NCBI GenBank assembly: GCA_965649765.1
Contig: OZ287753.1
Span: 70,184,001 to 70,248,000 of the forward strand
From: Bispira polyomma
Lineage: Eukaryota
Length of the DNA: 64,000 bases
Direction of reading: 5' to 3'
Every line of letters begins with the position of its first letter. Positions within the stretch are counted from its first letter, which is position 1. The notes under the pieces are model-generated. The model searched no databases, was not told the DNA's origin, and saw only the letters and a list, made by a program, of their open reading frames with translations. The position numbers and the translations under genes were made by a program. Of this stretch, positions 12,291 through 53,511 are shown piece by piece.

Positions 12291-12636
12291 ACTGAACTAA
12301 TGTAAGCTTAAACTAAGTTTAATTAAGTTTACCATAACTACTGGGGTAATATTTAAATGCGCCAAAACAAATTGTATCAAAGTCTAGTCAATAAAGGTTC
12401 ACAGTAAAAACTAGGAGTCATCAGCTCCTACCTCTATGATTTTGGTACGAATTATGATTGAGGCTTAAAATGGAAAAGTTGGCACTTCCTTGCCAATGGT
12501 CACTGGTTTAAAGTATATAATCTTGACCACTTAGTATACACTGCTTTTTTCCAGCACTAAAACTGTCTGATGAGTTATATAATGTGTTGAAAGTGATGTT
12601 AAATCTCAAATCAAACACCAAGTCACAGTCACTGTT

Positions 12637-12837
12637 AGTAGTAGTATGTGGGGGGATATACCCCGGGTATTTGAGCCCAATTTGAGCCCAATTCTATCTA
12701 CTTGTGCACAAATTTGAAAAGCTCGCTCAAAAACCTGACTCTTTAAAACTTTTTGCCCTCTTTTAGTGAATATTATGTTTTTTACTTTTTAAGAATACAT
12801 TATGATTTTGGGACTACCACCTTCTTCTAAAAACATC
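12637..12837 (+). repeat. Maverick left TIR
   Basis: Reverse complement of 27489-27687; shared blocks include ggtatttgagcccaatttgagcc, gctcaaaaacctga, tttttgccctctt and actaccaccttcttc. Confidence 0.88.
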
Positions 12838-13260: not shown

Positions 13261-14135
13261 GTCACTGTTTCTCAGAATCAAATTAATTATTATGGTTCAC
13301 CAATAATAAGATAAGCTTTCTCACCGTATTTTTAATAAAATTTTTATCCTCAGTAATTCTCGCATTATTAATAAATAATCGGCATAATAATAATGACCTG
13401 AACCAGGAAGTAAAGTGGGGTAACCTTTTTAATCTTAAATATTTCAGTCGTTTCTCAAGAGATTTTGATACACGAAAAAGCACAGTAATCACAATAAGAT
13501 GAGTCTTCAAACCACAATTTAACTAGAAGCAAAAAGTTGAACCCAACGGCAGGCGAACTCACGCACTATGACATTCTATAAGAATAAAACCTCACACTCT
13601 TCAGATTCAAAGTTTTTCACTTTAACCAGTACACCATGGCACAGGTAGCAATTAGAGGAAGTTCCTTTAATTCCATAATAACTGTGTAGTACATCTATTT
13701 ACTGAGTCACAATATTATTTTATTTTCTTCTTTAAACTGAATAGTATATGTATGTATATGTAATCTGTTTCTCATACACTGTCCAAAAAGCTATTCTTAT
13801 CATTAACATAATTTTAGATAGAATAGCTCAAAAAGTCAATATTTAGTACATCCAGATTTCTTTCTGATGTTATTTCTACAACTAATGCATCAATAGATGT
13901 AGGAGAATTCAACCACAAACCACCACTACCACCACCACCATGTCGATTACTAAGAGTCCTTAAACAATTTCCAGTTTCATTAAAGAGACTGCCACCACTG
14001 CCATGTCGCTTACTAACAGTATATAAACAATTTTCAGTTTTGCTAAATACACCACCACCCGTCTCAGACCTCAATAAATAAGCTGTACACCACCACAGAC
14101 TACTTCATCTCAACATTTTTATTCAATGTATCAGT

Positions 14136-15152
14136 ATGGCAGATAAATGTGACATATGTCAAAAGCTTTTTTCTAGATCCGATGTACTAAAATGTCACCT
14201 GTCAACAGTACATAAACAATTTCCAGTTTCACTTAAGCCACCACTACCAAATGTGATAAATTGGCAAAACGTAATGAAATTAGTAAAGAATAACCACCTC
14301 ACTTTTGAACATCCCTTTACATCAACATGTTCAGGTCTAACTCCTAGAAAAATGCACTTTGTTTCTAAATTGTTGCAGTTAGGTAAAATAGAACCTCAGC
14401 CAGAGAGAATATTGTATGTTTACAAGCAGTGGCAGCCATTATATGATATTATGAGGGAAATAATCTCTCCATTTATTCAGTTTATAAAAGGAATTCCAAA
14501 TAGTCCAAAAATGACAGTTTTATTAATCCACAGAAGAGAAATTTAATAATTTTGGATGATATGATGATCAGTCACTACTCACAAATGCATAACAGATCTA
14601 TTTACTGAAGAATCCCATCATAGAAACTTGTCTGTCAAACATCCAACATAAAATGTGTTTCCACCTGGCATAAATAGTGTAACCCAGAGGAGAAATATGG
14701 TTATATTCAAATCTCCAATGTCTCAAGATCAGATTAAGTGTTTGGAGCATTATATGTTTCCAGGTATGTTTCTAGCTATATACAATGAGGCTACACAAAA
14801 ACCATATGGGTATCTGATTATAGATGCAAAGCCAAATACACTTCAGGAACAGAGATTGACAACCAACATTTATCAGGAAGATATGGGGTCAGTGGAGAAA
14901 ATACCAGAGACATCAGCAGAACAAATACAGCTTTCACAGGTTGATAATAGAATACCAGCTATAATTTCACCATCAGAATTACCAAAAACAATACTACGAT
15001 TACCACGACAGCCACTGGATCAGTCGTCATCATCATTACTATCACCACAACAAGAACAGCCAATTCATAAAATCAAGACACAGTCAAATATCTCACCAGA
15101 GGTACTGCGATTACCACCACTGAAAATACCTCGAAAACCAATGACCCCCTAA
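14136..15152 (+). pseudogene. Maverick FtsK/A32-like DNA packaging ATPase with N-terminal C2H2 zinc finger (frameshifted)
   Basis: CDICQKLFSRSDVLKCHLSTVH; EHPFT with a decayed Walker A; PERILYVYKQWQPLY; IILDDMM; LFTEESHHRNLSV; ATQKPYGYLIIDAK...RLTTNIY. Confidence 0.85.
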
Positions 15153-15535
15153 ACCAAAATGGGACAGGATTTATAAATGAAATAAACATTGAACCCAAAC
15201 ATTAGACACCTGGTTGTATTAAGATTTACAACAGCATGAATTCAAGTGATTTTGTTCCTTTTCATAATTGTGGAATAATATTCAAAAAAATGTTATCATA
15301 TTGTTTAAAGAACCAAAGAGAAGTACAAGGAAGTACCTTTGAGTTTGAAAATTTGAATTTTTTTTTATCTATGTTAAGTTATGTGAGTAAACAACTAACA
15401 CAAATATTAATGTAAATAAACATTTGAATTTTATCCAACTATTGATTTACTCTCATCTACAACAATAATTAGTATAGCCTGAATTTACAGATGAAAATCA
15501 ACCGAGCAAAGAGCTTGTTTCTATAAATAAGCAAA

Positions 15536-16645
15536 ATGACAGTTAAACTCCTACACCACACAATGGTTAAAGAAAAGGGAAACTACCTACACCATGTGTA
15601 TTATAACAGTAAAACTCCGGCATCCTACGGAGGATTCAATAAATTTTATAGATTCGTGAAAGGTGAAAATAGATATTCCTTTTCAAAACAAGAGGTTAGA
15701 GAATGGTTCGGCAAACAAGACATCTTCGTCTTGCATCGACTAGTAAAAAAAAATTTAAAAGACCAGCTGTAAAAAAGTTCCAACAATGGAATATTAAGAC
15801 CGCTAACATGATAAAATTTTAAAAATATAATAGGGGTTATGGTTACTTTTGTGTACTTATAGATACCTTAACCTGCTTTTTGTGGACATTCCCTCTGCAT
15901 AGTCTGACTGGTGAGGAAATGAAAAAGGAACAAGACAACATCTTCAAAAAACAGAAGCCTACATTTCTATTTACAGACAGAGGAAGCGAATACAATAAAA
16001 GATTGTGCAAAGGTATCTAAAGACTGAAGGAATTGTACATTTTATGAGCAACAATGAAACCAAGGTTGCTATGGCCGAGAGAGTGATAAAAAACTGTTAA
16101 ATTAAAACTGATCAGAATGATGACGGGCAAAAACAATTTCAAGTGGGTTGAAGATTTAAAAGATATTACAGAGTCATACAATAAGAGCTTCCACAGAATG
16201 TTGCAAAGCACTTCTACAGAGGCTGTGATAAGAAGGATTACGATTTGTGGAGTGAAGAGTATCTCCCAAAAGAATATATATAGCAAGAGGATAAAAGCGA
16301 TAAAAAGAAAAAAGCACCAAAATCTAAATTACCCTTTAAATTAAAGGTAGGGGATCTTGTGAAGGTTGCCTATCTATCTAAGACTTTTCAAAGAGAATAC
16401 CAAGAGAGGTATTCCAGGGTAAGGCACAGTATAAATTAAAGGGTTTGAACAGTGAGCTTACAGGAGGTTTCTTTTATAACCCAGAACTGCAAAAGGTTTA
16501 CTCTGACAACAATACCACATACCAAATTGAAAAAATTCTGAAGACTAGAACTAAGAGAGGAAATAAAGAATACTTAGTCAGATGGGAAAATTATTGATCC
16601 AAATTTGACAGTTGGGTACCCGAGGAGAATATTAAAGATTTATAA
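15536..16645 (+). pseudogene. Maverick retroviral-like (rve) integrase with C-terminal chromodomain (frameshifted)
   Basis: YYNSKTPASYGG N-terminus; IDTLT; FTDRGSEY; AMAERVIK; YNKSFHRML; chromodomain YQIEKILKTRTKRGNKEYLVRWENY*SKFDSWVPEENI. Confidence 0.88.
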
Positions 16646-16670: not shown

Positions 16671-17050
16671 ATGAATCAATTATACCTACATCTTCATTCT
16701 ACCATTCATTGAGTTATCACCCTAAAAATCAGGTATGGGAATTTATTGTAGAGATAGTAGACAATATAGAGCTTGAGGGAAATTGGAAATGTGGACTGGC
16801 AGAAATCAGTTATAGCGATGAGGTTAAGGAAGCCATATATATACATATTGTGACATTGTTGATATAAGTCTGATTGAGGTTTTCTGTAGACTTATTTTAA
16901 GAGTGGTAGATAAAGCTAAACATTACAATCAAATCTACTATAAAAGGGTGAACAGAACAAATCTAGAGAGAATTAAGGTACCTGGTAAAAACTTAAAAAA
17001 CTAAAAAATTTCAACTAAGCCTACTTACGTGGTTTTAAGCCTTCAAAAAA
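16671..17050 (+). pseudogene. Maverick minor capsid protein (penton), compact
   Basis: MNQLYLHLHS...SLSYHPKNQVWEFIVEIVDNIELEGNWKCGLAEISY...YCDIV matches the Polinton minor capsid N-terminal pattern. End approximate. Confidence 0.7.
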
Positions 17051-17480: not shown

Positions 17481-18680
17481 ATGAATGTCTTACAGGAAAA
17501 AGTGGCTCTTTTTCAAAAACCTTTGATAGATCCATCAGTCCATCATATTGATTGGGTTGAATACAGACCAAGCGGTCAAATTAAAAGTGGAAATGTAATT
17601 GAATTTAATGGAACAGGGGATGGGACGGATTATATAGATTTGAAGAAAAGTAGATTGCATATTTCAATGAAAATTGCAGATAGTTATGGAAATAACTTAC
17701 CAGCAGCTGCTAAAGTTGGTCCCGTCAATTTAACATTACATTCTCTCTTTCGTCAGGCAGATCTAACTCAAATCAAAGCAAATCAATATTTCACCAGGAG
17801 TTGGAATTAACTATCCCCACAAAAGTTTATTGGATGTATGGTTACATAATAGTTTTGTGAGTCAACAGGGACAGTTGGAAAATGAACTGTTTGCAAATGA
17901 CACAGCTGATACTCATAATATCACAAGTGGGGATGATAATATAGGGTTTGCTATTACACATGAGAGATGTGCAGCAAGCACAGTAGTGTACTTATACAGT
18001 CCTTTAGATGTGGATATTGCCGATCAAGATAGACTCATTGTAAACGGAGTCCAGATCAATCTAAAATTATATCCCAGTACTGATAGGTTTAGTTTAATAA
18101 TGGAGATAAAGGATACAAGGTAGAAATAATTAATGCTGCTTTAATGAGCTGACAGGTAAAATTAAATCCCTAGCTTGTACTAGCTTATGCAAAAGCTTTG
18201 AAGGTGGGACCAGAATTATACCCTTTCTGGCAAAGCGAATTCAAGACTTTTACCATGCCAAAAGGGAATATGATGTGGAGTGATGATGGAACTTTTCATG
18301 GAGAGGTTTCCAGCAAATTAATTGTAGGTGGAAACTACATTGAAAATCCATTTAAATTTCATCACTACCATTTAAATTATTTAGAATTTGACTAGCAGAC
18401 CTACTTTCATGGGAGGACTATATGCAGAAGCATATAATAGCTTGTTTTATGGAAGATATGGTGAAAATGAGACAAATATACAGATTACCCAAATGGTTAT
18501 TGTCTTTATGTGTTTAATATAGACAGTAATGTGAGAGGTGACCTTAAATCACAACCTAAAAAGGGTCACAGAAGAATAACTGTAAATTTCGGAAAAGCTT
18601 TAAGAGAAAGTGTAACTGCAATATTATACGGTCGTTTACCATCTATGTTAACTATTTCTGAGGCTAGAATTGTAGAATAA
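17481..18680 (+). pseudogene. Maverick double-jelly-roll major capsid protein (frameshifted)
   Basis: LFQKP...WVEYRP...IEF...DYIDLKKSRLHI...VGPVNLTLHSLFRQ; DQDRLIVNGVQINLKL; NPFKFHHYHLN; PNGYCLYVFNI; ARIVE* end. Confidence 0.88.
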
Positions 18681-19092
18681 TGAATACTTCTGAACTAAAA
18701 GAAAATTGTTGAATGATAGATTCATCAGCAAATATTATGGTGGAGTATATGCAGCAAAAAATTCTGATTGTAAACAGAAAACCCTACTCTCACAAAGGGG
18801 AACATTGGATAGCAATGTATGTAAGTAAAAAAGAGGCAGAATATTTTGATTATTTAGGTGATTTAGCTACGAAAACTTTTAAAAATTTTCTGTTGAGACA
18901 TCAAGATAGTTATAGCAAAAATATCACAAGAGTACAAAGTTATAAGAGCATGTTATGTGGGGAATATTGTTATATTATGCTTACCATAAATGTAGGAGAA
19001 AGAGCTATACTGATATCTTAGAAAGTTTCGATGAAGATTATAAACAAAATGATGTGAATATAAAATCATTTTATATTTTGGAATTTCTTTAA
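18680..19092 (+). pseudogene. Adenain-like cysteine (maturation) protease
   Basis: IVN...KGEHWIAMY...EYFDYLG...RVQ...LCGEYC (H/D/Q/C catalytic pattern); TAATG coupling with the major capsid stop. Confidence 0.88.
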
Positions 19093-19390: not shown

Positions 19391-19659
19391 TTATGAATTG
19401 TGAGTAATGTTTTAGTAAAATCACAGAAAATTACTCAATTTTAAAAAAGGATATAAATTGCAACCACATTGCAGTCAGAAAAGAATCAAAATGGCAGAGA
19501 ATATATAATCAAAGGGGAGCAAGAGAAAATGAGGCTGACTGTGTTGTTGCAGCCTCTGCATCTAGTTATAGAAGAAGAATAGATAACCAAGACAGAATAA
19601 GTGAACTTACAAAAAAGTTCCGCAATTGCCAATGTAAAGAAGAATCACTGGCTATGAGT

Positions 19660-19922
19660 TGGGGGGGCCGCGGTGGCCTAGTGGTTAGCAAGCATTGCGT
19701 TTCACAATCACTGGTCTCTCACCTCTGGGATCGGCTGGCGTGGGTTCGACTCCCGTCGAGGCCTATGTGGGAAAGGTGGTAGTTCCTTACTGTGGGCCGC
19801 TGGTTTCTCTGCGGAACCTTGACCGACTGTTTGTAGTGTTTCCTCCAGCGTTTTCAACTACCCGTCCCAATATATCCCACTAAAAGGTAGTAGAATGGAC
19901 GTTAAATATCCAAATTCAAATT
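19660..19922 (+). mobile_element. tRNA-derived SINE
   Basis: ggggccgcggtggcctagtggt A box, ggttcgactcc B box, caaatt-repeat tail; 8-bp TSD ctatgagt (19652-19659 / 19923-19930). Confidence 0.9.
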
Positions 19923-21013
19923 CTATGAGTAGGGATTGGGTAGATTACAAAGTCTTCCACAACAGATTAGAAAGTTTCAGAAGTTGGCCAAAAAGTACTG
20001 GTGTGAGTCCAGAGGATGCAGCCAGGGGGATTTCGATACACTGGTTATGGTGACAGTTGTGTATCAGTTCCCTAATGTATAGTTATTGATAAAGTTGGTA
20101 TGGGTAATGCTAAGTGAGAAGTCAGTAAAAGATAAGGTTTTGAGGTTTATTTTCTGTACATATTATTTCTATGTACAGGGTATACACAATATATTTAAAA
20201 TTTTTAAAATACGTGTAAAATTTTAAATTAGCCCATATGGCCAGTACAAGCCCACTAAAGCGGACATAACATGTTAATATATGTAGGTAAAACCCTAGGA
20301 CCATACTAGTTTCGTGGAACCTTATGAACATCCATTTTATATGCCTTTGAACTTTATGTATCTCTAATTATGTTAGCCAAAAGTTTACCTTCTACTACGA
20401 AACCACTGCTTAAAGCTGGAACTCGCGTCCTGCGGCACCTAGTCGCCTAGCGAAGAGACGTTCCCAACTGCAGACATGTATTCCTCCCTGGTAGCCCACA
20501 CCAGAGGGTAGTTTACAAAAAGGGAACAGAATCTTCACACGGACACGAGTTCAACTTACCAGCAGAGGCACGTCAGTTATACTTAATGGAGGAGTAAAGT
20601 GGAAGGTGGTGGGAAACATAAAATTTTCTTTCAGTGTTTACTGTTCACTGTCTAAATCAAAATGGTGCTAGAATCTGGGTATACAGAAGCTAAATCAGCA
20701 GGGGGTTAATTAGTGATTGGTTCCCACCGTCACAGTTGAATGAACAAGTGCAGAACAAGAAAGGTTTTTAAAATGGTAATATGGGTATATGGTGAACTGA
20801 CACAGCAGTCCCCTAAAGTGCTCGTGCTAGTCACAGTTCCCTAATGTATAGTTATTGATAAAGTTGGTATGGGTAATGCTAAGTGAGAAGTCAGTAAAAG
20901 ATAAGGTTTTGAGGTTTATTTTCTGTACATATTATTTCTATGTACAGGGTATACACAATATATTTAAAATTTTTAAAATACATGTAAAATTTTAAATTAG
21001 CCCAAACCCAAGT

Positions 21014-21997
21014 TCAAGCAGAAGAGAGGAGTTTTGTAAAGGTAAGTGGGATTATAGAGGCGGCTTGAGAAGTAGATTGCAAATATGTCCAAACGGCAGA
21101 GCTTCGCCACAGCCCATGCGCCATAATATTTTGTAAAGAAACATTATTGTTAAATGCCAGAGTGGCTCCAGATCTTCTGAAGGTGTGAAATCCATGGATG
21201 GAAGGGTTGATACCTAAATGTTGAAGTACTGTTCTCAAAGCTGCCCGAATATGAGAATCCACGATGACGTGGTGAGGTGGAAGTTGTGAAAGAAAAATTG
21301 GTGAGAGTGGACAGATTTTTCTAGATGCACAGAGTTCTGTAAGAGCCTTAACTGGGCAAAGTGATGGGTTGTCTATTTTTGGTAATTGCACTACATGTGA
21401 TTTAGTTCTGTCTTGTAAATTCTTTGCCCATTTTATTATTATGTGAACCCCAGGGGGGCCAAAGATGAGATCTTGTTTTAGCAAGTGTCTTGAGGGATCA
21501 AATTTGCTCCTGGAGTGGGGGGCAATATTTGACATGCGCAGAAATCCAAAGAATGCTATGAGAAATATGGCTCTATACAGTGGTGGGTCCTTCAAAATTT
21601 GGCAGGTTTTTGAAATTTCTAACAATTAGTGTATATCAAAAACCCCTTTTGGAGAAGGCCTAAAAGAGGAAGTATGAACTAAACTGCGAGTAAACAGGGA
21701 TACAGAGTTGTGTTCTAGCACCGTGTAGTTTAGGTTATATTTCAAACACATAAACTTAATACCTGCCAAGTAGTTGTTGACAACTTTTGGAGATATATTG
21801 TTCTGAGTGAGATATTCCAGAAAAGCAAGTACAGAGTGTACTGTGATGTCTTTTATATTCACATATTGTAAGAAAGAAAGATAAGTCCTGAAATGACTGT
21901 AATATGCTGTTGTGGTAGCAGGCCTGAGTGCAGAATGTATCCTATTGATGGCTGCTAAACCCAACGTGTCTGAAGAAGATGTGGAACCTAAAATCAC
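21014..21997 (-). pseudogene. Tyrosine recombinase (SAM-like N-terminus plus catalytic domain), one internal TAA at 21626-21628
   Basis: AFFGFLRMSN (R), KWAKN (K), HTFRRSGAT (HxxR), HGLWRSSAVWTY (W...Y). ORFs 21626-21997 and 21014-21625 are in the same frame. Confidence 0.92.
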
Positions 21998-24755
21998 ACA
22001 TTAAGGTTGAGATTAAAATGTGACACTGGAACTTGTTTCCGTTCAAATGTGGCTAGTAGCCTCATCATTTCCCTATTGGGTGGGTTATCCGAATACACTC
22101 TGGACAACGCATCTGCCAAAATATTTTCCTTACCCTTAATGTGTACTATATTCAATGTAATGTCATAAGTAGAGGTAATCAACCAGATATTGCGAATGCA
22201 TGCTGCTAAGTACATGTCTCTCGTTTTTTCAGTCTGTACGACCAGGACCACGGCCATGTTGTCGCAGTGGACAGTCACCCTTTGGTGTGCCCAGTCTTTT
22301 CCCCAAATTTTTAATGCTAACACTATATTCACCATTTCTAGTTGTGTAATATGTAGGTCAGTGTCATAAATTTTGTGAACGGGTGTATAATATACCTGAT
22401 TATTCCAAATTCCCCCTAGGCCTGTCAAACATGCATCCAAATACATTTCTTTATCAGCCTTAATGTGGATAGGATTTATGTATGTAATGCCATTATATGA
22501 AAATAGAAATGTGATAAACCAATCCAAATCCTGTTTGATATGATTAGTAACCTTAAAATGTTTAGCCCCGGGAGATGCTCTAAACACTGATAAAAGACGA
22601 TTAATGAAGCATCTAGCGGGTTTAACACATTTATGTATGTAAAGGAGTTTTCCCAAAATTGATTGAAATTTAGTGCACGATAGCCATGATTTCTGACGTG
22701 CTTCCACACAGGCTTCAAAAATTTCAGTAATTTTTTCTTTAGTAATACTTATTGTACCTTTAGATATGTCTATGTCTATTCCCAGAAATGTAACCTTAGA
22801 GGAGGGAGCGCATACTTTATCCGGATTCATAGGATTCAAAAATTTCAGTAATTTTTTCTTTAGTAATACTTATTGTACCTTTAGATATGTCTATGTCTAT
22901 TCCCAGAAACGTAACCTTAGAGGAGGGAGTGCATACTTTATCCGGATTCATAGGAAGGCCTAGATTGTTCAAAAGATTGCAAAGTTGTAAGAAACCTTCA
23001 TCTGCTTTGTCTTTATGACAGACGCAGGCGTAATCATCAATGTAACAATGCAATTTGAATCCCAACTTCTGCATGTGATCTGCTATAAGGTCAGAGCATC
23101 GCTGAAACACGGCACTGCCGTGCGCCCAGCCGAACGCAACGGCAGCGTCCACGTAGTACTTGTCGTCATGCTTGATGCCTAGCTTTAGTGCGTCCACCGG
23201 ATCTACCCTTAAATTACGGAATGCGCGAGCAACGTCCACCTTAAAGATCAGAGGTTCTTTAGTTTCGCGAATACTGTCTGTGACGTTGTCAATGTTGGGA
23301 AATTTCAAAACAAATTCTATGCCGTCATAGGATTCCCTACTTACATTGTCATTAACTACATATCCAGAAGGATGTGAAAGGTTAAGAATGACCCTACATA
23401 TATCTACGTCCTTAGGTCTAGTGAGCAAAGGGGAACAATGAAATTGCAAATCTGGTACCTTGTCCACTGAGCCCAACATTGCACCCTTACTCCATTCCTT
23501 TTCAAGATATTGATCAATAGCTTCGGAAAATTGTAACGCAGAGTGATGGTTAACTACGTCTGAGCAATGTAATTGGTCAGGATTATCTAATGAAAGAGGA
23601 AATCCGAATTTTAAATACTGCACGATCAATTTGTCTCGGTGGTCTTTTGCAATATCCTCCCAACCTTCAATATTGAGTTGAGATTTCAAGGGTATTCTTG
23701 CCTGTCTATAATTTGGCAGTCCAGTATTCCTAATAATGTTAGCTACTTCTGTCATTGTCCTGAATATTATCTATATGGACCGAATGCCTGTCTGGTCCTA
23801 TAAATTGAAATTTTCTGTCTGATACTTTAATAAAACCAATACTCTTAGAAACATCAGAAATATCCTTAATATTGTTTGTAAGTTTAGCAGAAGAACTGTG
23901 TCCCATTTCTGGGCTGATCAGCCCGTCTATGGTTACATCAGTTGGATTATTCATGTAAGTCGAGCTCACCTTGATTTTTGTGTCGCTTCTCTTTGTATGA
24001 GTAGCAACTGTGTTTTCAACAACTGTTTGAGTGTTATTTGCCTCAATCAGCTTGTCGATAACACCACATAAATATCGAGTATAATCACATGAATGACTGT
24101 CATAACTGATCAGGTCCTGTTTGTAGTTCAAGTGAGCCAATTTTGCATTGGTTTGTTGTTCAACACTAAGTTGCTTAATATTCCACATTACTTGCACTGA
24201 AATACTAACACTCATAATATCCAAAGTGATTAATTGAAAACTCGGTAGATCACTAAGCGTGACATAAATGATTCTATTTCCTTGATGTACTACATAACAG
24301 AAACCCGACCAGTTACTGTACTCTTTGAAACGCAAGTACACCACCTGGTGCTGTAAACCACTTTGTGGCCTATAAAAAATGCAATTCATTACAAATATGT
24401 CACATTTGGTAGCCATAATGTCACCATATATGAGAACATTGTTTGGACTATAATGTCCTCGATTATGTACATATTCATGTGTAAGTTTGTTCTGGATTGT
24501 ACTTTTCCAGATATTACTGAAATCATCGCTTACTGCTGAAGGTATGAGTTCATTATATATTTCCTTATCATTACTAATACTATAATTAGTTGGAATGTTA
24601 GTTTGGTTGTTTCCACAGAATTTACAAATTATAAAATTACACTTATTAGATATACTGTCACTACCAAATTTACAAAGCTTTTTTGTTACTTTATCACTAT
24701 TATTACAATTTTCTACTTGGTCTATAGTCCCAACACCTGGTCGTTGACTGACTAC
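21994..24755 (-). pseudogene. pol: DIRS-type pol: N-terminal region, reverse transcriptase and RNase H (frameshift near 23750, 121-bp duplication)
   Basis: SPLLTRPK, RVILNLS, FKVDVARAFRNL, AFGWAHG, YIDDY; RNase H LDACLTGLGG, HITQLE, HCDN, HIKGKENILADALSR. Confidence 0.9.
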
Positions 24756-25907
24756 CTATTTATTTACTTGACTACTGTCTACTGTCTTTTTACTGCTTCC
24801 TGCCTTGTTACACTTGTGCTCTGGGTGAACACTTTCTTTATTTCCAATTTTAAAACAATAACTACATATGTGCCTATATTGTCCATGATCCCCTTCATTT
24901 GAGCACGAGCCGTTATTAAAAAATTTGCACACACTTTTCACCTTCTGGTTTAGCTGAATTGACTGTGAATTCATTAAAGCAAGTTGTGAGGTACTAAGCC
25001 TGTTTAAGGCCCACTGCGTTGCATTTGCCCAATCCAGTCTTCCCTCCTCGACTTCTTGCATATTAACTCCCCATGCTGCCCTTACTGCTGGCCAGGGCAG
25101 CGAAGCAGCATCACGAAACATATAGACCATCTGATGAAGCATCTGTCTCATCAGGTTCAGATCCGAAACCTGGGCGACATTAGCCAGTTGGCCCGCAGCC
25201 CACTGAGGCATTGATAACTCATCATAGTTGGGTCTTTTTCTGGCAGTTCCCTCTAACCAGCCCTCGTTTGCCCATCGTGCTTGCGGTTTAGTGACACAAA
25301 CATCAGTAGTATTGTAGCGCCCAGATTTGTGACGTAAATGGGGCTTACCTTGAGACAGTTCGTGTCTTAGCTGGGTGTCGTAAGCTGCCAATCTCTGGTT
25401 TACTGCGGCACTGACTTCCGGAATCGTCTTCATAACATCAATGCGTGGGATGATACCGTCACGTTGGTAATCTTGGTGGTATTGTGTAGGAAACGAGGCC
25501 AATTGGCTGTGTGTGTGGAGTGACTGAGCCGGCTGTACGTGTTGTGGAGGTGGCGCCTGGTACATCGGTAATGCAGGAACAGTCCTAGCCCGGAGGTCCA
25601 TCATGGTGTCATTACGTGCCGGATGCATCGGTGAATTCAAAGGGGTAGAATTGACTGCGCCCTTTAATTCCACCCTGTCGAGCCGTTTGTTGATATCGGC
25701 ATTGGCAGATTCCAGACGTTGTAGAATGGACATTACTTCGGCCATGCTATTACTGTCTGTAGGACGTACGGGCGGTTCTATTTCGGATAATGGTTCACGT
25801 AAGTTTCTTACCACTGGATCCTTTATTTTTGCAGACGCCGCCCGCCTTGTGGTCAAAGGTTTTCTTGCCTGAGGTGCACTGCCGGGTGTTTTCTTTGTCT
25901 TACCCAT
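24756..25907 (-). CDS. gag: gag-like ORF1 of the YR retrotransposon (383 aa)
   Basis: Intact ORF with YDELSMPQW motif and C-terminal CKFFNNGSC...H...HICSYC...H...C zinc-binding cluster typical of DIRS-group ORF1. Confidence 0.85.
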   Translation of the reverse strand: MGKTKKTPGSAPQARKPLTTRRAASAKIKDPVVRNLREPLSEIEPPVRPTDSNSMAEVMSILQRLESANADINKRLDRVELKGAVNSTPLNSPMHPARNDTMMDLRARTVPALPMYQAPPPQHVQPAQSLHTHSQLASFPTQYHQDYQRDGIIPRIDVMKTIPEVSAAVNQRLAAYDTQLRHELSQGKPHLRHKSGRYNTTDVCVTKPQARWANEGWLEGTARKRPNYDELSMPQWAAGQLANVAQVSDLNLMRQMLHQMVYMFRDAASLPWPAVRAAWGVNMQEVEEGRLDWANATQWALNRLSTSQLALMNSQSIQLNQKVKSVCKFFNNGSCSNEGDHGQYRHICSYCFKIGNKESVHPEHKCNKAGSSKKTVDSSQVNK

Positions 25908-26332
25908 TCTTTACAATTTGTGTACATGTAAGGCTGTATAACTCATTCAACATAAAAACTAAAAACCCTAAAATCTAACTATGTACAGGATACTTGTAAA
26001 GTTCTTGTAAAATCATAAAATTCCTTTTTGGAAACATAAAATTTTCTTTCAGTGTTTACTGTTCACTGTCTAAATCAAAATGGTGCTAGAATCTGGGTAT
26101 ACAGAAGCTAAATCAGCAGGGGGTTAATTAGTGATTGGTTCCCACCGTCATAGTTGAATGAACAAGTGCAGAACAAGAAAGGTTTTTAAAATGGTAATAT
26201 GGGTATATGGTGAACTGACACAGCAGTCCCCTAAAGTGGTCGTGCTAGTCAGTCTGTGGTGTTACATGCAGCTGAAGAACTGGAATTACTTTGAAGAACA
26301 GTTGAAAATGCACTCCAAACTCAACCCGAATT

Positions 26333-26617
26333 GTGAATATGTGCAAACCTAGTGAATTGTCAAAAATTAAAAGAGGTAATTATAAGTTGTATCTAAATCG
26401 TCTGGAAAGCTACAGAGGGTGGAGCGACGGCAAGATAGTAAAACCAGAAAAGTTAGCCAGAGCTGGATTAATGTACACTGGTTTAGGGGACAGATGTCAG
26501 TGCCTCTGGTGTTCTATAATTCTCCATTCCTGGGAGTACCTGGACGAGCCCTTAGTTGAACATCAAAGATATTCAAAAGACTGGGGTTACATAAAAATGA
26601 ATCTGTCAGATGACTAA
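26333..26617 (+). CDS. BIR (IAP-type) single-domain gene 2, open frame, last Zn-ligand Cys replaced by Trp
   Basis: RLESYRGW...PEKLARAGLMYTGLGDRCQCLWCSIILHSWEYLDEPLVEHQRYSKDWGY. Confidence 0.85.
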   Translation: MNMCKPSELSKIKRGNYKLYLNRLESYRGWSDGKIVKPEKLARAGLMYTGLGDRCQCLWCSIILHSWEYLDEPLVEHQRYSKDWGYIKMNLSDD

Positions 26618-26826: not shown

Positions 26827-27464
26827 ATGTCATATATATTAACAATAGACAACCCAGATTGTGATTCAAAAGCCATTATGTGTTGGAAGAAAGAAGGTGA
26901 AGGGTTTCAAAATGCTTTAGAACTATGAGATTTAACAGAGTTCTATAAGAACCAAATCTTCTACAACAGTTTTTGTGAAAGACGTACACATTTGGTTTTG
27001 TTACATAAAATAAACACAAGTGAACAAATTCATGTTTTGAACTAAAAGAATTAACAATGAAAGAACTATACATTAAATTATATGACAAGAAGAATATTGA
27101 ATATTTAAACAAAATCTTTCAGTGAAAGAATGAAATATTTTGGTTTCAGAAATATAACAATAAGAGATGAAAGCTACATAAAATTATTCAGAAGTATACC
27201 CACTATCAACAAGGCAATAAGGAGAGAAAATATGAAGATGTCAATTTCTATTAGTGAATCTGAAAAGATTTAAATAACAAAATCACTATCCTATATAAGA
27301 TAATCGGCAAATTCAGAAAGTTTCCAAGGGATATAATATACCTTTCAATATTCAGTGAAGGGAGAGAATTCTCTTTCACTGTAAGTGACTGGCATCAAAT
27401 AGTTAAAATGTGGAAGGTCAGAAAGCTTCTGTTACAAGAATGCTGTACTAAAAGTACAAACTAA
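26827..27464 (+). pseudogene. Degenerate right-end Maverick ORF(s), function unknown (possibly PC4-like)
   Basis: ATG at 26827 and broken frames (YIKLFRSIPTINKAIRR...; FSFTVSDWHQIVKMW) ending just inside the TIR boundary. Confidence 0.35.
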
Positions 27465-27488
27465 ATTAGAACCCAAATTCCAATTTGG

Positions 27489-27687
27489 AGGTTTTTCGAA
27501 GAAGGTGGTAGTATGTGGAGGTCTCAAAATCATAATGTATTCATTCAAAGTAAAAACTCTATAAGAGGGCAAAAAGTTTCCAGATCAGGTTTTTGAGCGG
27601 GTTTTTTAAATCTGTGCAAAAATAGATAGGATTAGGCTCAAATTGGGCTCAAATACCAGATGTATATCCCCCCCACATACTACTACT
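27489..27687 (-). repeat. Maverick right TIR
   Basis: Inverted imperfect copy of 12637-12837 ending in actactact. Confidence 0.88.
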
Positions 27688-28825
27688 ACTGTCATTGTAA
27701 TTGAACTGACAGTCACAGTGCAAAAGATTTTTATCAATGCTAAAATCTATATTCAAAGGGTTTATATACACTGAGGAGATAAAAAAGACATTTAGAAAAG
27801 TAGAGCCTTTGTCACATTAATTATGCATAGTTCAAACTGAGCCTGTAGTTCTGAATATATTAAAGAGAGAAAGAACGGGAGACAGATCTAACATATATTA
27901 AACTAATTAAAATATATTAATTGAAATATATTGAGGGTCACCTGGTGATGTTCTAATTTATGTAAATATAAATGTGTGTGTAGGTTTATAGTATGAAATT
28001 ACCTCTATTGAGGTCTCAGCCGACTCCACAATTTACACCCCCAGCCTGTGTTCTTGCACATGCCAACCAATTGTTTAGTCTCAGCTCCCTCAGGAAAAAG
28101 AGAACAACGTTGTGTAAAGCACCTTGTCCAAGGGTACAATATTCAGACCTGCAGCGAGGATTGATTCTGGACCTTTAGATCCAAAAGACCGACACTCTAA
28201 CTGCTAGGCCACAGAGATCACTAAAGGGTGAAACTAGCATTATCCGTACTGTGAACCATGGACTTGCCGCAAGTATTTTATATACTTTCCCACAACATGA
28301 AACCAGTAGGAATTTAAAATGCACTTAGAATTAGTATTGCATACCAACCTAATTTGTTACCTTGGCAAAATCCTAAACTTCTTTGTGGTTCAGTCAATAA
28401 TGCAAATTGTTACTGTTAGTCAAAGTATTATATTGGTGTGAACTCAGAATGTTGGGAATTGACACTAACTACTTTTTACTTGTCTTTTTTTAGAGATCCT
28501 AATTCAATTAAAAATACATGTACTATTTTAATGACTTTTAAACGATTTTCTATTAGTATATTAAACATTCATTATTATTAAACATTCATTATTGTGTTTT
28601 CAATTAAAAATACATGTACTATTTTAATGACTTTTAAACGATTTTCTATTAGTATATTAAACATTCATTATTGTGTTTTTAGTGAGTATATTGAATTATG
28701 TGCAGTTCAATGAGTGCATAACAGAAAATCAATAAAAATGGTCTTAAATCTTGGTAGTCGTATTTAAATACCTTGCTGGTAGACCAAAGCAGCCAAACTA
28801 TCTGGACCATTACATGGTAGAGATA

Positions 28826-32060: not shown

Positions 32061-32887
32061 TTATGTGTGTTCGAGCTTCTCACAAACTGTACAACTTTTT
32101 TGTGGCCTTAAACTTGATTTATGGATAACATATTTACATTTTCATTAGTAGAAATAATACATTTATTAATACATATATTTTATGTGTCAAAATGACATAT
32201 ATTTTATTAATTAATATATTTTATGTGTTATTTTAATGCATATTTTGAGACATACAATACATACTGCAGCGTGTAAAATTGTAAGTAAAATGGTTATTAT
32301 TTTCAAAGTTCATGCTTCGCAAATGTGACACAATTTATATACCAAAAAGGGATCAATACTAAAGTATAGTGCATCATGACTGGACAAAGGAAAACATCAG
32401 CATTATTTTGAATGAATGTGTTTTTCAGTAAAAGCACAAAAACAGGAATAATTTTAGAAAAACATTAAAGTCACACTTTTCCGAACAGAAACATGTTTGT
32501 ATTCTTCATTTTTATAAAGTAAGGAAACATATTGAAAAATGTAAATCATTTAAAATAATATACACGTTTTTATAAGTTGTGTAGCGTATATGTATATGTC
32601 AATGTGAGCTGGATCAATAGTCGTATTACTCGTCACAATAGAAAGGCCTCTCTGAGAGAATTGTTTTCAAATATGACCTTCCACCATAAATTTTAAATTG
32701 CATGACGTCACAATACAAGATTCGCTATATTACTGTTTTAATCATTTTTTCAATGAAATATTGAAGTTTTAAGTTGTTTCTGCATATACAAAAAAATTAA
32801 AACTGCCCGTAAGCTATCATTTTAAGGCAGGCAAAGTGAGTATATAGGCTAAAATACAATTTCGTAAATGCAGCATAATATCTTTGC

Positions 32888-40645: not shown

Positions 40646-41112
40646 ATAAAGAAACGAACACAAAAGACTCTTTCTTTTAGGAAATAGTAACTGAAATATT
40701 TTTGCAAAATAAGCCCAGTTTTTTATTTTAATTGAAAAAATAATTCATTTAAAATAATGCTGAAGTTTTCCTTTTCTCGTCATGTACAGTACTCCAGTAT
40801 TAATTTCTTGTTTTGTGTTAATTGTGTCACGTTTGTGAAGCATGTACTTACGAATATTAACCATTTTTGTCCCAATTTATACACACTGTCATATGTATTA
40901 TATATCCCAAAACATATATTAAAATGAACCATAAAATATATAAATTATCATATAATTAAAGTATATGTTGTTGTTTTTTTTATTTCTACTCATAAAAATG
41001 TAAATATGTTATCCATAAATCGAGTTTAAGGTACAAAAATTAAAGTTGAGCAGTTTGTGAGTGGCTCCAACACACGTAGCGTGGTTATCAGCAATCAATT
41101 TTGTGTTTATAT

Positions 41113-48355: not shown

Positions 48356-51300
48356 TTAACTACAACTTCTTGATAGAGCATCAACACAAATGTTATCCTT
48401 TCCTTTAACATGCTCTATTTGTAAACTGTATTCTTGCAAAACCAAACTCCAATTCAATAAACGTCTGTTTTTGTTTTTCATTTTGTGCAAGAATACTAAA
48501 GGGTTGTGATCTGTGTACACAATAGTTGGTTTTGATGATGAAGAGATATATATATCAAAGTGTTTAATGGCTAAAATGAGGGCTAAACATTCCTTTTCTA
48601 TTGTAGAGTAATTCTTTTGATGTACGTTAAATTTTTTTGAAAAATAACAAATGGGATGTTCAATATCTTCATCATCAGTCTGCAGTAAAACTGCACCTGC
48701 CCCAACATCACTGGCATCCACAGCTAACCGAAATGGTCTACTGAAGTCTGGAGCAGCTAGTACAGGCTCCGGACAGAGAACATTTTTTACTTTGTCAAAT
48801 GCTTTTTGACAAGCTTCAGACCAGTGATATTTTACGTTTTTTTTTAAGAGCTCAGTCAGTGGAGCAGTGACATCTGAGAAATTTTTACAAAATTTTCTAT
48901 AATAACCTGACATTCCCAGGAACCTCATTAAACTTTTCTTATTTTTAGGAATAGGGTAGTCAATAATGTTTTCAACTTTTACTTTAATTGGTGTCACAAC
49001 TCCATGACCCACTACATGCCCTAAGTAAACAACCTTTGCTTTTACAAAGTCACTTTTCGATAAATTCACAGTAAGGTTGGCTTGCTTGAACTGAAATAGA
49101 ACTTGTTCAAGTCTTTTTAAATGTTCTTCCCAAGTATCACTAAAGATGACAATATCATCCACATACACTTCAACCCCTTCTAAGTTCTTTAGACAAATAT
49201 TCATAAGTCTCTGAAATGTAGCTTGGGAATTTTTCATGCCAAATGGCATTACTTTGTATTGATACAGACCATCGGGAGTTACAAATGCTGATATTTCTTT
49301 TGCCCGTTCAGTAAGAGGTACACACCAGTAACCTTTCAATAAGTCACACTTTGTGATATATTTGGCTTTACCAATCCGATCAATACAGTCTTCCATTCTT
49401 GGGATAGGAAATGAATCGGTTTTACTCAAAACATTAACCTTTCTATAGTCTGTGCAATATCTGATAGAACCATCAGGCTTCGGGACCAAAACACAAGGAG
49501 ATGCCCAACTACTTTGACTTGGTTCAATTATATCTTTGTCCAACATGTATTGCACTTCTTTTCTTAATTTTTCAAGTTTAATCGGGTTTACACGATATGG
49601 GTGATGTTTGACCGGAATGGCATTGCCAACATCAACATCATGCATGAGTACATTGGTCCTGTTAGGGGCATCAGGAAATACTGACTTATACTTCAAGAGT
49701 AACTCACTAAGTGGGATTCTCTTATCTGGAGTTACATGATTCAGTTTGGTTTCCAAATCAGCAAGAATCTCTGAATTACTCAACCTGATTTTACATTTAA
49801 CTTCAACATCAGGAGTGTCACCCCATGCTTCATGCTCCTGATTGTTATCATTTTCCACATTACAGTCAGTAGCCATGACAGGCTTTGTCACACCCCTTTC
49901 AAAGTATGGTTTTACCATATTTACATGACACAGTTGGGTTGACTTCCTTCTGTCCGGGGTTTCAATGACATAATCCAGATCACCTACTCTTTTTAACACT
50001 TTGTATGGCCCATGATATCTGGCCTGTAACGTGTTCCCCTGGACAGGTAATAGCACTAAAACCTTGTCTCCCGGTTTAAAAACACGGTTTTGCGACTTTC
50101 TATCATAAAGCCTTTTCATTTTTGACTGAGAATATTTCAGATTTTGTTGCGCTAGCTCACAAGCCTTTTTCAGCCTACTCCTAAACTTTGAAACATAATC
50201 TAACAGGTTTAGGCTCTCAGAGTTCTCGGATAACCAATTTTCTTTCAACAATTTGAGAGGACCACGGACTGAATGACCAAACACCAACTCAAAGGGACTA
50301 AAGCCTAAAGACTCTTGCACTGATTCCCTAACTGCAAACAATAATAAGTTGATGCCTTCATCCCAGTTTTTCTCATTGTCTAAGCAATATGTCCTAATCA
50401 TATTTTTTAAAGTGGAATGGAACCTTTCAAGGGCATCTTGTGATTCTGGGTGATAAGCACTAGATTTGATCTGTTTGGCACCTAACTGAAACACGACTTG
50501 CTGAAATAATCCTGACATAAAATTTGATCCTTGATCTGACTGGATCTCCTTCGGTAAGCCAACTAAAGTAAAGAAATTGATTAAAGCTTTCGAAATTTTC
50601 GGGGCTGTTATGTTGGTCAAAGGTATGGCTTCAGGGAATCTGGTTGAGGCACATATAATGGTTAGGAGATATTGGTTTCTGGATTTAGTCTTTGGTAAGG
50701 GGCCTACACAATCAATTATCACCTTGCTGAATGGTTCCTCAAATGCTGGAATGGGTTTTAGAGGAGCTACAGGAATCTTTTGGTTTGGTTTCCCCACAAC
50801 TTGACAAATGTGACAAGTTTTACAAAATTCTGCCACACAGCGCCGGATTTGAGGCCAGTAGAAATGCTTGGTTATTTTGCCATAGGTTTTATTGATGCCT
50901 AAATGGCCACCCATTGGAGACTCATGAGCTAACCTCAATACATCATTTTGGTACATTTTTGGTAATACAATCTGATGAAGTATTGACCAATTCTCAGAGG
51001 TAGGGACACTTGGCGGCCTCCACTTTCGCATAAGTACACCATTTCTGATATAATAGCCTACTGGGACCTTATCTAGCTCTACTGGTGGTAACACCAATTT
51101 GAATAGAGGGGCTAATTCAGGGTCATTTTCCTGCTCTACAATCAATTTTGATTTTGAGAGTGATACCTCTGGATCATCAAATTGGTCTTGTTTCTCAGAA
51201 TCTTTCCTACCTTTAGGGTCAATATCACTATGATTTTGCACATCATGGTCACAGTTGTTTAAGAATGTATCTGATAAATCAACTAAGACATCTGTAGATT

Positions 51301-53425: not shown

Positions 53426-53511
53426 TTTGAGCACTCTTGACTGTAATATATTTTCAAACAAAATAAATGATTTTTCAAAAAGCTATAAAAATAGTTAGAT
53501 CAAATGGTAAG

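What the first reader, a model, noticed from the sequence alone, without database searches (positions are those of the whole stretch)
19491..26617. Maverick carries two tandem single-BIR (IAP-like) genes as cargo
Seen: BIR2 (26333-26617) is an open frame. BIR1 is reconstructable with the full C-x2-C-x16-H-x6-C signature and its 3' end overlaps the BIR2 start. Both are intronless, share the CLWC variant, and lie inside the TIRs. Established: BIR proteins are apoptosis inhibitors used by baculoviruses and mollusc herpesviruses. Inference: this is a Polinton-type virus with its own anti-apoptosis module, consistent with an infectious life cycle. It may also be a vehicle contributing to intronless BIR gene expansions in invertebrate genomes.
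Basis: partly seen in the sequence, partly recalled or inferred. Interest (0 to 1): 0.78.

Follow-up and report, generated by a model that had tools for sequence, protein, structure and literature searches.

The report
Maverick elements carry their own IAP
The two 'BIR genes' are the broken halves of one cell-death-blocking-type gene that a virus-like Maverick transposon carries as standard equipment, and such elements supply most of the best-scoring BIR domains in this animal genome, which offers a testable alternative explanation for the intronless IAP expansions reported in shellfish.

Summary
Both BIR domains are real and lie inside a Maverick, but they are not two genes. Sibling elements carry one 225-229 aa frame with two tandem BIRs and no RING (16 of 30 best loci). 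The window copy is dead: split by a SINE-like insert, a 6.2 kb tyrosine-recombinase retrotransposon and frameshifts, and it lacks a polymerase. The gene is no one-off capture: 52 of 59 close capsid genes have it downstream, dN/dS between subfamilies is 0.05-0.47, and Maverick BIRs group apart from host BIRs. Other Maverick lineages carry single-BIR versions; 117 of the 150 best Pfam BIR hits lie beside Maverick core genes (biased against intron-split host genes). Most leaders hold a caspase-like DxxD site (11 of 16; controls 7 of 158). IAP cargo in Polintons is already in print in passing (PMC8502044), and this scan saw it in another genome (e1-7803284). The link to 'retroposed' intronless mollusc IAPs was not found in print and is testable. 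Anti-apoptotic activity and infectivity are inferred, not shown.

The parts
12628..12633 (+). left copy of a probable 6-bp target-site duplication (5 of 6 match to 27691-27696)
   Evidence: read from the ends printed
12634..12837 (+). left terminal inverted repeat of the Maverick, AGT-repeat terminus
   Evidence: I3; 79% over 213 nt
14082..15152 (+). C2H2-like repeats and a broken packaging-ATPase-like gene; left arm of another lineage; no polymerase in this copy
   Evidence: weak zf hits; 28% to a sibling ATPase, no hit to either polymerase part; same arm at other loci
15563..16642 (+). broken rve integrase with chromodomain
   Evidence: (rve, Chromo)
16671..17022 (+). broken small conserved gene, probably the minor capsid protein (label from position; no database hit)
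   Evidence: no Pfam or PHROG hit for the sibling protein
17481..18677 (+). broken major capsid protein gene
   Evidence: sibling protein resembles DJR-like PF21738 clusters at 0.98 (family on 22-30% of members)
18680..19089 (+). broken cysteine-protease gene
   Evidence: sibling has a weak match to ASFV S273R protease (E 0.047) over the catalytic motifs
19491..19663 (+). 5' part of the IAP gene (leader), out of frame near its start
   Evidence: blastn to siblings; residues 6-56 of 225
19664..19922 (+). high-copy SINE-like insert with a short direct repeat at its ends
   Evidence: (4078 candidates, best 92-93%); ARAGORN found no tRNA
19923..20064 (+). 5' half of the first BIR, with a frame change near 20025
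20065..26251 (-). tyrosine-recombinase retrotransposon (Ngaro-like split direct repeats; gag-like, RT, RNase H, YR), inserted into the first BIR
   Evidence: RVT_1, RNase H, phage integrase; repeats D1 and D3, 99%; absent from siblings
26252..26352 (+). 3' half of the first BIR, ending at a frame change near 26345
26306..26617 (+). open frame holding the second BIR; last zinc ligand lost in this copy
27091..27495 (+). remnant of a 154-aa terminal gene of unknown family found in close siblings
   Evidence: no Pfam hit
27488..27690 (+). right terminal inverted repeat
27691..27696 (+). right copy of the probable target-site duplication

Best explanation
The window holds a dead, polymerase-less Maverick whose last large gene was a single two-BIR, RING-less IAP. 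That gene is a long-held accessory gene of this genome's Mavericks: its two BIRs arose by duplication inside the element lineage, and related lineages carry one-BIR forms at other positions. Shown: anatomy, one gene, family-wide presence, purifying selection, grouping apart from the sampled host BIRs. Inferred: while an element copied itself, the protein kept the cell alive by using a peptide-binding (type II) BIR to soak up IAP antagonists or active caspases, without ubiquitin ligase activity of its own; a caspase-like site in the leader probably lets caspase activity switch, trap or time the protein, as in fly DIAP1 and DIAP2. Each new insertion left one more intronless BIR gene in the genome.
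For: One 225-229 aa frame with two BIRs and no other Pfam domain; 16 of 30 best loci keep both signatures in one frame. Two siblings traced to both ends have 99-100% inverted repeats and perfect 6-bp flanking repeats around polymerase, ATPase, integrase, capsid, protease and the IAP. 52 of 59 capsid matches of 56% identity or more have a same-strand BIR within 12 kb; 176 of 218 capsid places have one within 13 kb. dN/dS 0.05-0.47 in 19 of 28 between-subfamily pairs, the other 9 saturated at silent sites; capsid 0.09-0.21; single-BIR forms 0.07-0.38 in 21 of 21 pairs. Tree: 18 of 23 Maverick BIRs in one starred clade (98/88), the two BIRs of this family sisters (98/92), none of 20 host BIRs among them. 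Type II marks E76-H77-H80 in the second BIR by the criteria of PMC8917759; E-H invariant in 13 of 13 single-BIR forms. DxxD plus small residue in 11 of 16 leaders, 0.8 expected, 7 of 158 in control N-termini.
Against: No functional or expression data. A RING is needed by DIAP2 to block death (PMC2373516, passages), and these proteins have none. The tree rests on 73 columns, its bootstrap had not settled, and a single origin of all Maverick BIRs is only not rejected (AU p 0.34); five of them group with three unnamed outside proteins. Only open copies went into dN/dS; within subfamilies the ratio is 0.26-1.36 on very few changes. The leader motif was noticed before it was tested, the 16 leaders are related, 5 of 16 fail the strict form, and both genes of lineage H as printed for L126 fail it. 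In two subfamilies the typing residue 80 departs from type I or II.
Confidence: 0.75

Rival explanations
1. Two separate single-BIR genes in tandem.
For: In the window the two BIRs lie in different frames and the second has its own ATG. Another Maverick lineage (L120, L126) does have two separate single-BIR frames about 0.9 kb apart.
Against: Siblings about 90% identical have one frame; the window changes frame at the junction and is decayed throughout.
Confidence: 0.03
2. The BIR gene is a maintained element gene but not an apoptosis blocker: a zinc-binding adaptor for innate-immune or NF-kB signalling, cell cycle (survivin-like) or a decoy that stabilises host IAPs.
For: No RING or UBA; the first BIR is type I-like; BIRs have several uses (recalled). 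Op-IAP3 acting by stabilising a host IAP is known to me only from a reference title.
Against: Best single-domain matches in the PDB are XIAP BIR domains, well above survivin (E 4e-14 against 2e-8); type II residues and caspase-like leader sites are kept across lineages.
Confidence: 0.17
3. Passive cargo: host IAP retrocopies captured once or several times and copied without benefit to the element.
For: Intronless BIR-RING host genes with no Maverick gene in the fetched flank exist here (L094, L097), so retrocopies are available; the gene's position differs among lineages.
Against: Purifying selection close to that of the capsid over saturated silent divergence; presence at 176 of 218 capsid places; no host BIR inside the Maverick groups.
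Confidence: 0.05

Closest known systems
Accessory IAP homologues of adintoviruses / Polintons (Starrett et al. 2021, PMC8502044)
   Same: The paper states that adintovirus homologues of Bcl2 and IAP were observed (passage); in the text layer of its Fig. S2 the label IAP stands next to the Mytilus and Pinctada maps (placement read from page layout).
   Different: One sentence and map labels only in what I saw; no architecture, copy number, selection or leader analysis. Fig. S1 could not be read. Here: a two-BIR form from internal duplication, several one-BIR lineages, about 200 loci.
Intronless single-BIR Clade 1 IAPs of the hard clam (Song et al. 2021, PMC7831173)
   Same: 42 of 49 are single-exon, 39 of these 348-456 nt, 15 exactly 408 nt on 10 chromosomes with FPKM at most 1.3 in 48 samples (counted); DNA transposons are enriched near IAPs; Maverick is the largest DNA-transposon class in that species (PMC8905726). 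Single-BIR Maverick genes here are 127-168 aa and dispersed.
   Different: The authors ascribe them to a retroposition burst; their flanks were not available to me, so a Maverick origin is a prediction. Some single-exon Clade 1 genes on chromosome 6 are clustered and expressed.
Cellular IAPs with caspase-cut N-terminal regions: Drosophila DIAP1 and DIAP2
   Same: BIR domains behind a caspase site; DIAP1 is cut at Asp20 and then handled by the N-end rule (PMC5739542, passages); DIAP2 needs its cut to trap drICE (PMC2373516). A Cys left at a new N-terminus can be a degron (PMC6274719), and Cys follows the site in the two-BIR family.
   Different: No RING here, about half the length, 35-45% identity in the BIRs to solved IAPs; cleavage not tested.
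Baculovirus and malacoherpesvirus BIR proteins (recalled)
   Same: Viral, intronless BIR genes thought to block apoptosis.
   Different: Baculovirus IAPs have a RING (recalled). No named viral BIR was in my tree; the IMG/VR scan found no relative, so kinship was not tested.

Membership tests
Maverick/Polinton (family in this genome) | terminal inverted repeats with 6-bp target-site duplication (6 bp recalled) | tested here: met
   two siblings with 99-100% repeats and 6 of 6 flanks; window 79% and 5 of 6
Maverick/Polinton (family in this genome) | retroviral-like integrase, packaging ATPase, cysteine protease, jelly-roll capsid (list from PMC6431247) | tested here: met
   rve and Chromo over cut-off, Pox_A32 weak; Walker motifs; DJR-like clusters 0.98; weak S273R match
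Maverick/Polinton (family in this genome) | protein-primed family B polymerase | tested here: met
   siblings: PHROG DNA polymerase E 5e-5, KxxxNxxYG and DTDS motifs; no Pfam hit; the gene lies in more than one frame piece in both siblings read
Autonomous Maverick (the window copy) | polymerase present and core genes open | tested here: not met
   no polymerase match in the window, all core genes in pieces
IAP / BIR-containing protein | BIR domain with C-x2-C-x16-H-x6-C zinc ligands | tested here: met
   siblings: two BIRs, E 9e-36, full signatures; in the window copy both are damaged
IAP / BIR-containing protein | type II groove residues (E/Q76, H77, W/H80) | tested here: met
   second BIR of the closest subfamily; type II-like in the others
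Baculovirus-type or cIAP/XIAP-type IAP | C-terminal RING | tested here: not met
   no RING in 7 of 7 Maverick proteins scanned, present in 2 of 3 host frames scanned
Apoptosis inhibitor (function) | blocks caspases or cell death | not testable with these tools
   needs expression and assay
Infectious polintovirus / adintovirus | virions or episomal genomes | not testable with these tools
   capsid under purifying selection is compatible but not proof
Ngaro-type YR retrotransposon (the insert) | RT, RNase H, tyrosine recombinase, split direct repeats A-B-A-B (structure recalled) | tested here: met

The most novel reading that the evidence does not exclude
A large share of the dispersed, intronless, single-BIR 'IAP expansion' reported in molluscs and other invertebrates is not host retroposition but the accessory gene of endogenous Mavericks, and these viral IAPs form their own lineage of RING-less, caspase-gated inhibitors whose leader is cut to switch or time them.
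Probability: 0.35. Interest if true: 0.8.

Novelty: new variant of a known kind. Interest (0 to 1): 0.55.

Why it matters
Counts of IAP genes in bivalves and other invertebrates are read as host adaptation to stress and infection. In this genome at least 208 of 263 pooled BIR loci sit beside Maverick core genes, so annotation of such a genome would report an IAP expansion that is mostly viral cargo. The claim for other species can be tested in a day by reading the flanks of the annotated genes. It also shows that Mavericks keep a cell-death gene under selection like a core gene, which bears on whether they go through a cell-damaging, virus-like phase.

Tried and rejected
Two-gene reading: rejected by sibling frames. 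One-off capture: rejected. AlphaFold model of a sibling protein: mean pLDDT 35, unusable, so no fold search was run. The search for homologous proteins: timed out for the two-BIR protein; none at E 1e-10 for one single-BIR protein (16 candidates); 4 unnamed proteins among 485 candidates for the 13-row profile. Representative search: 150 listed hits are generic multi-BIR proteins at 28-43% identity. No match among phage records or IMG/VR contigs. ARAGORN found no tRNA in the SINE-like insert. Far ends of three further elements were not found in the 5 kb stretches fetched (3 of 5). The looser leader pattern (16 of 16) was fitted after seeing the data and is not counted as evidence. One spurious domain (L129) entered the quick tree and was dropped from the careful tree with 10 other own-genome rows and 49 of 67 outside rows. 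The host organism was not identified; 'mollusc-like' is an impression only.
Full report
Observation. The window lies in a 1.04 Gb animal assembly. Inverted repeats at 12636-12837 and 27488-27688 (79% over 213 nt) bound a 15 kb element with AGT-repeat ends and a 5-of-6 flanking repeat. The frame 26306-26617 matches Pfam BIR at E 1.6e-15 and the frame before it matches the 3' half of a BIR. The 5' half of that first BIR lies 6 kb upstream. Between the halves sits a tyrosine-recombinase retrotransposon (20065-26251; RT, RNase H and recombinase hits; split repeats 99% alike), and a high-copy SINE-like insert sits in the leader (19664-19922). Both inserts are absent from siblings.

One gene, not two. 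A search of the genome with the second BIR scored 150 of 521 candidates. Of the 30 best loci, 16 hold two full signatures in one stop-free frame, typically 225-229 aa, with BIR as the only Pfam family. Laid against such a protein, the window changes frame near 20025 and near 26345, which creates the apparent overlap of two genes. The window's second BIR has lost its last zinc ligand. All core genes of this copy are in pieces, no part matches the sibling polymerase, and its ATPase is only 28% identical to a sibling's. The same left arm occurs at other loci, some next to this family's capsid or BIR gene, so the window belongs to a polymerase-less hybrid subfamily. It is 76-93% identical to sibling segments, while open siblings differ by dS 0.02-0.04: an older, dead copy.

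The element is a Maverick. In siblings the order is polymerase, ATPase, integrase, small gene, capsid, protease, IAP, terminal gene. Integrase and chromodomain pass Pfam cut-offs; the capsid resembles DJR-like clusters at 0.98, a family carried by 22-30% of their members; the protease has a weak match to ASFV S273R; the polymerase has a PHROG match and family B motifs. Two of five elements whose far end I sought showed 99-100% inverted repeats and perfect 6-bp flanking repeats; their polymerase genes are themselves in more than one frame piece.

The IAP is a standing part of these elements. Of 59 capsid matches at 56% identity or more, 52 have a same-strand BIR match within 12 kb (I entered 119 of the 150 rows, leaving out 31 that were the first BIR of a locus already listed). 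More distant Mavericks carry one-BIR genes of 127-168 aa at other positions: first gene after the left end, opposite strand after the capsid block, or before the polymerase. Of 218 capsid places, 176 have a BIR locus within 13 kb. Nei-Gojobori dN/dS on open natural copies is 0.05-0.47 in 19 of 28 between-subfamily pairs (9 saturated), 0.09-0.21 for the capsid, and 0.07-0.38 in 21 of 21 single-BIR pairs; within subfamilies it is 0.26-1.36 on 1-6 silent changes. This is selection during element copying and little after insertion.

Origin. A careful tree of 61 BIR domains (73 columns) puts 18 of 23 Maverick BIRs in one clade (98/88) and makes the two BIRs of the window's family sisters (98/92), which points to duplication inside the element. 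The other five group with three unnamed outside proteins (94/87). None of 20 host-labelled BIRs falls among them; one clade for all 23 is not rejected (AU p 0.34) but not shown. 'Host' is my label for long-frame genes with no Maverick gene in the 5-10 kb fetched. The quick tree of all 121 rows agreed. No named viral BIR was included.

Share of the genome's BIRs. A Pfam BIR search scored 150 of 537 candidates. 84 lie within 13 kb of a listed capsid gene, 0.8 expected; 33 more have a Maverick core gene in fetched flanks, giving 117 of 150. Eleven others are short, ten of them Maverick-type by sequence or neighbours; 22 are host-like, of which 17 rows were fetched and 5 assigned by frame length and position only. 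Pooling three searches gives 263 loci, 208 with core-gene evidence. Both shares are biased upward: exon-split host BIRs score low, and two of the three queries were Maverick proteins. The count of about 200 is a lower bound. Against a Maverick-only story, intronless BIR-RING genes without Maverick neighbours also exist (L094, L097).

How it likely works. By the residue rules of PMC8917759 (section 7 read whole) the closest subfamily has a type I first BIR and a type II second BIR; other subfamilies keep E76 but vary at position 80, and E-H is invariant in 13 single-BIR forms. XIAP BIRs are the best single-domain PDB matches. There is no RING. I infer a sink for IAP antagonists or caspases. The leaders are otherwise hard to align, yet 11 of 16 have D-x-x-D followed by a small residue within 35 residues, against 0.8 expected from shuffles and 7 of 158 other N-termini; one per major group gives 5 of 8 against 0.24. 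The preference of effector caspases for this pattern is recalled. In the two-BIR family D-E-x-D-C is invariant in 8 of 8 rows. Precedents are DIAP1, cut at Asp20 (PMC5739542, passages), DIAP2, whose cut is needed to trap a caspase but which also needs its RING (PMC2373516, passages), and Cys as a caspase-made degron (PMC6274719, passages). The motif was seen first and tested second, the leaders are related, and both lineage H genes of L126 lack it; I give caspase gating about even odds. An infectious cycle is compatible with a capsid under selection but is not shown.

What is known. Starrett et al. (PMC8502044) note IAP homologues in adintoviruses in one sentence, with IAP labels beside bivalve maps in Fig. 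S2 (text layer; Fig. S1 unreadable and may hold more). So the cargo itself is known. Three IAP-expansion papers contain neither 'Maverick' nor 'Polinton' in their main text and favour retroposition for intronless copies: PMC8917759 (passages), PMC13159474 (12 of 20 passages) and PMC7831173 (passages). In the last one's Table S11, 42 of 49 Clade 1 genes are single-exon, 15 of them exactly 408 nt on 10 chromosomes and nearly silent, and Maverick is that species' largest DNA-transposon class (PMC8905726, passages). Searches for the link found nothing (PMC6431247 and PMC12314368 passages, do not make it); the library lacks most subscription papers and Repbase reports. This scan reported an IAP on palindromic Maverick-type elements in another genome (e1-7803284, unchecked note).

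Verdict. Observation partly right, interpretation partly right. A known kind of cargo in a new form and at unexpected scale. Interest 0.55, because it makes the origin of intronless invertebrate IAPs directly testable, while function and infectivity remain inferred.

Noticed in passing
L003/L007 (G000:C8 43.03-43.06 Mb) and L009/L010 (G000:C1 89.03-89.05 Mb): Mirror-image Mavericks of about 20 kb: the right end occurs at both termini (arms 97-99% alike), each arm with the IAP gene, between direct 6-bp flanking repeats. The middles were not read.
   Followed up: partly
L039/L040 (G000:C9 50.40-50.41 Mb): An inverted pair in which the flanking DNA is mirrored too, so an inverted duplication or assembly effect rather than a palindromic element.
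   Followed up: partly
L120 and L126: A Maverick lineage with two separate single-BIR genes in tandem, of different subtypes.
   Followed up: partly
window 13900-15200: Left arm with C2H2-like repeats and a divergent ATPase, found at many loci (56 matches from 30 candidates), some joined to this family's right half: a polymerase-less hybrid subfamily.
   Followed up: partly
L094, L097 and neighbours at G000:C1 71.4-71.7 Mb: BIR-(UBA)-RING host IAPs in single long frames, several clustered, with no Maverick gene in the fetched flanks: probable true retrocopies.
   Followed up: partly
window 20065-26251: The YR retrotransposon has a 121-nt tandem duplication in its RT-RNase H region and a 376-nt stretch between its last two terminal repeats.
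   Followed up: no
L044 15-530: The gene after the single BIR in several lineages has a weak PC4 (single-strand binding) match, E 0.008.
   Followed up: no
window 48356-53482, minus strand: An open 1708-aa Gypsy-like polyprotein with SCAN domain and integrase ahead of RT.
   Followed up: no
G000:C3 67-72 kb, C15 65-70 kb, C8 138-143 kb, C11 4.6 kb, C13 53-59 kb: Near-identical single-BIR Maverick copies close to the starts of several contigs, possibly a subtelomeric duplication.
   Followed up: no
window 32100-32460 and 40700-41030: A second pair of inverted arms about 8.5 kb apart.
   Followed up: no
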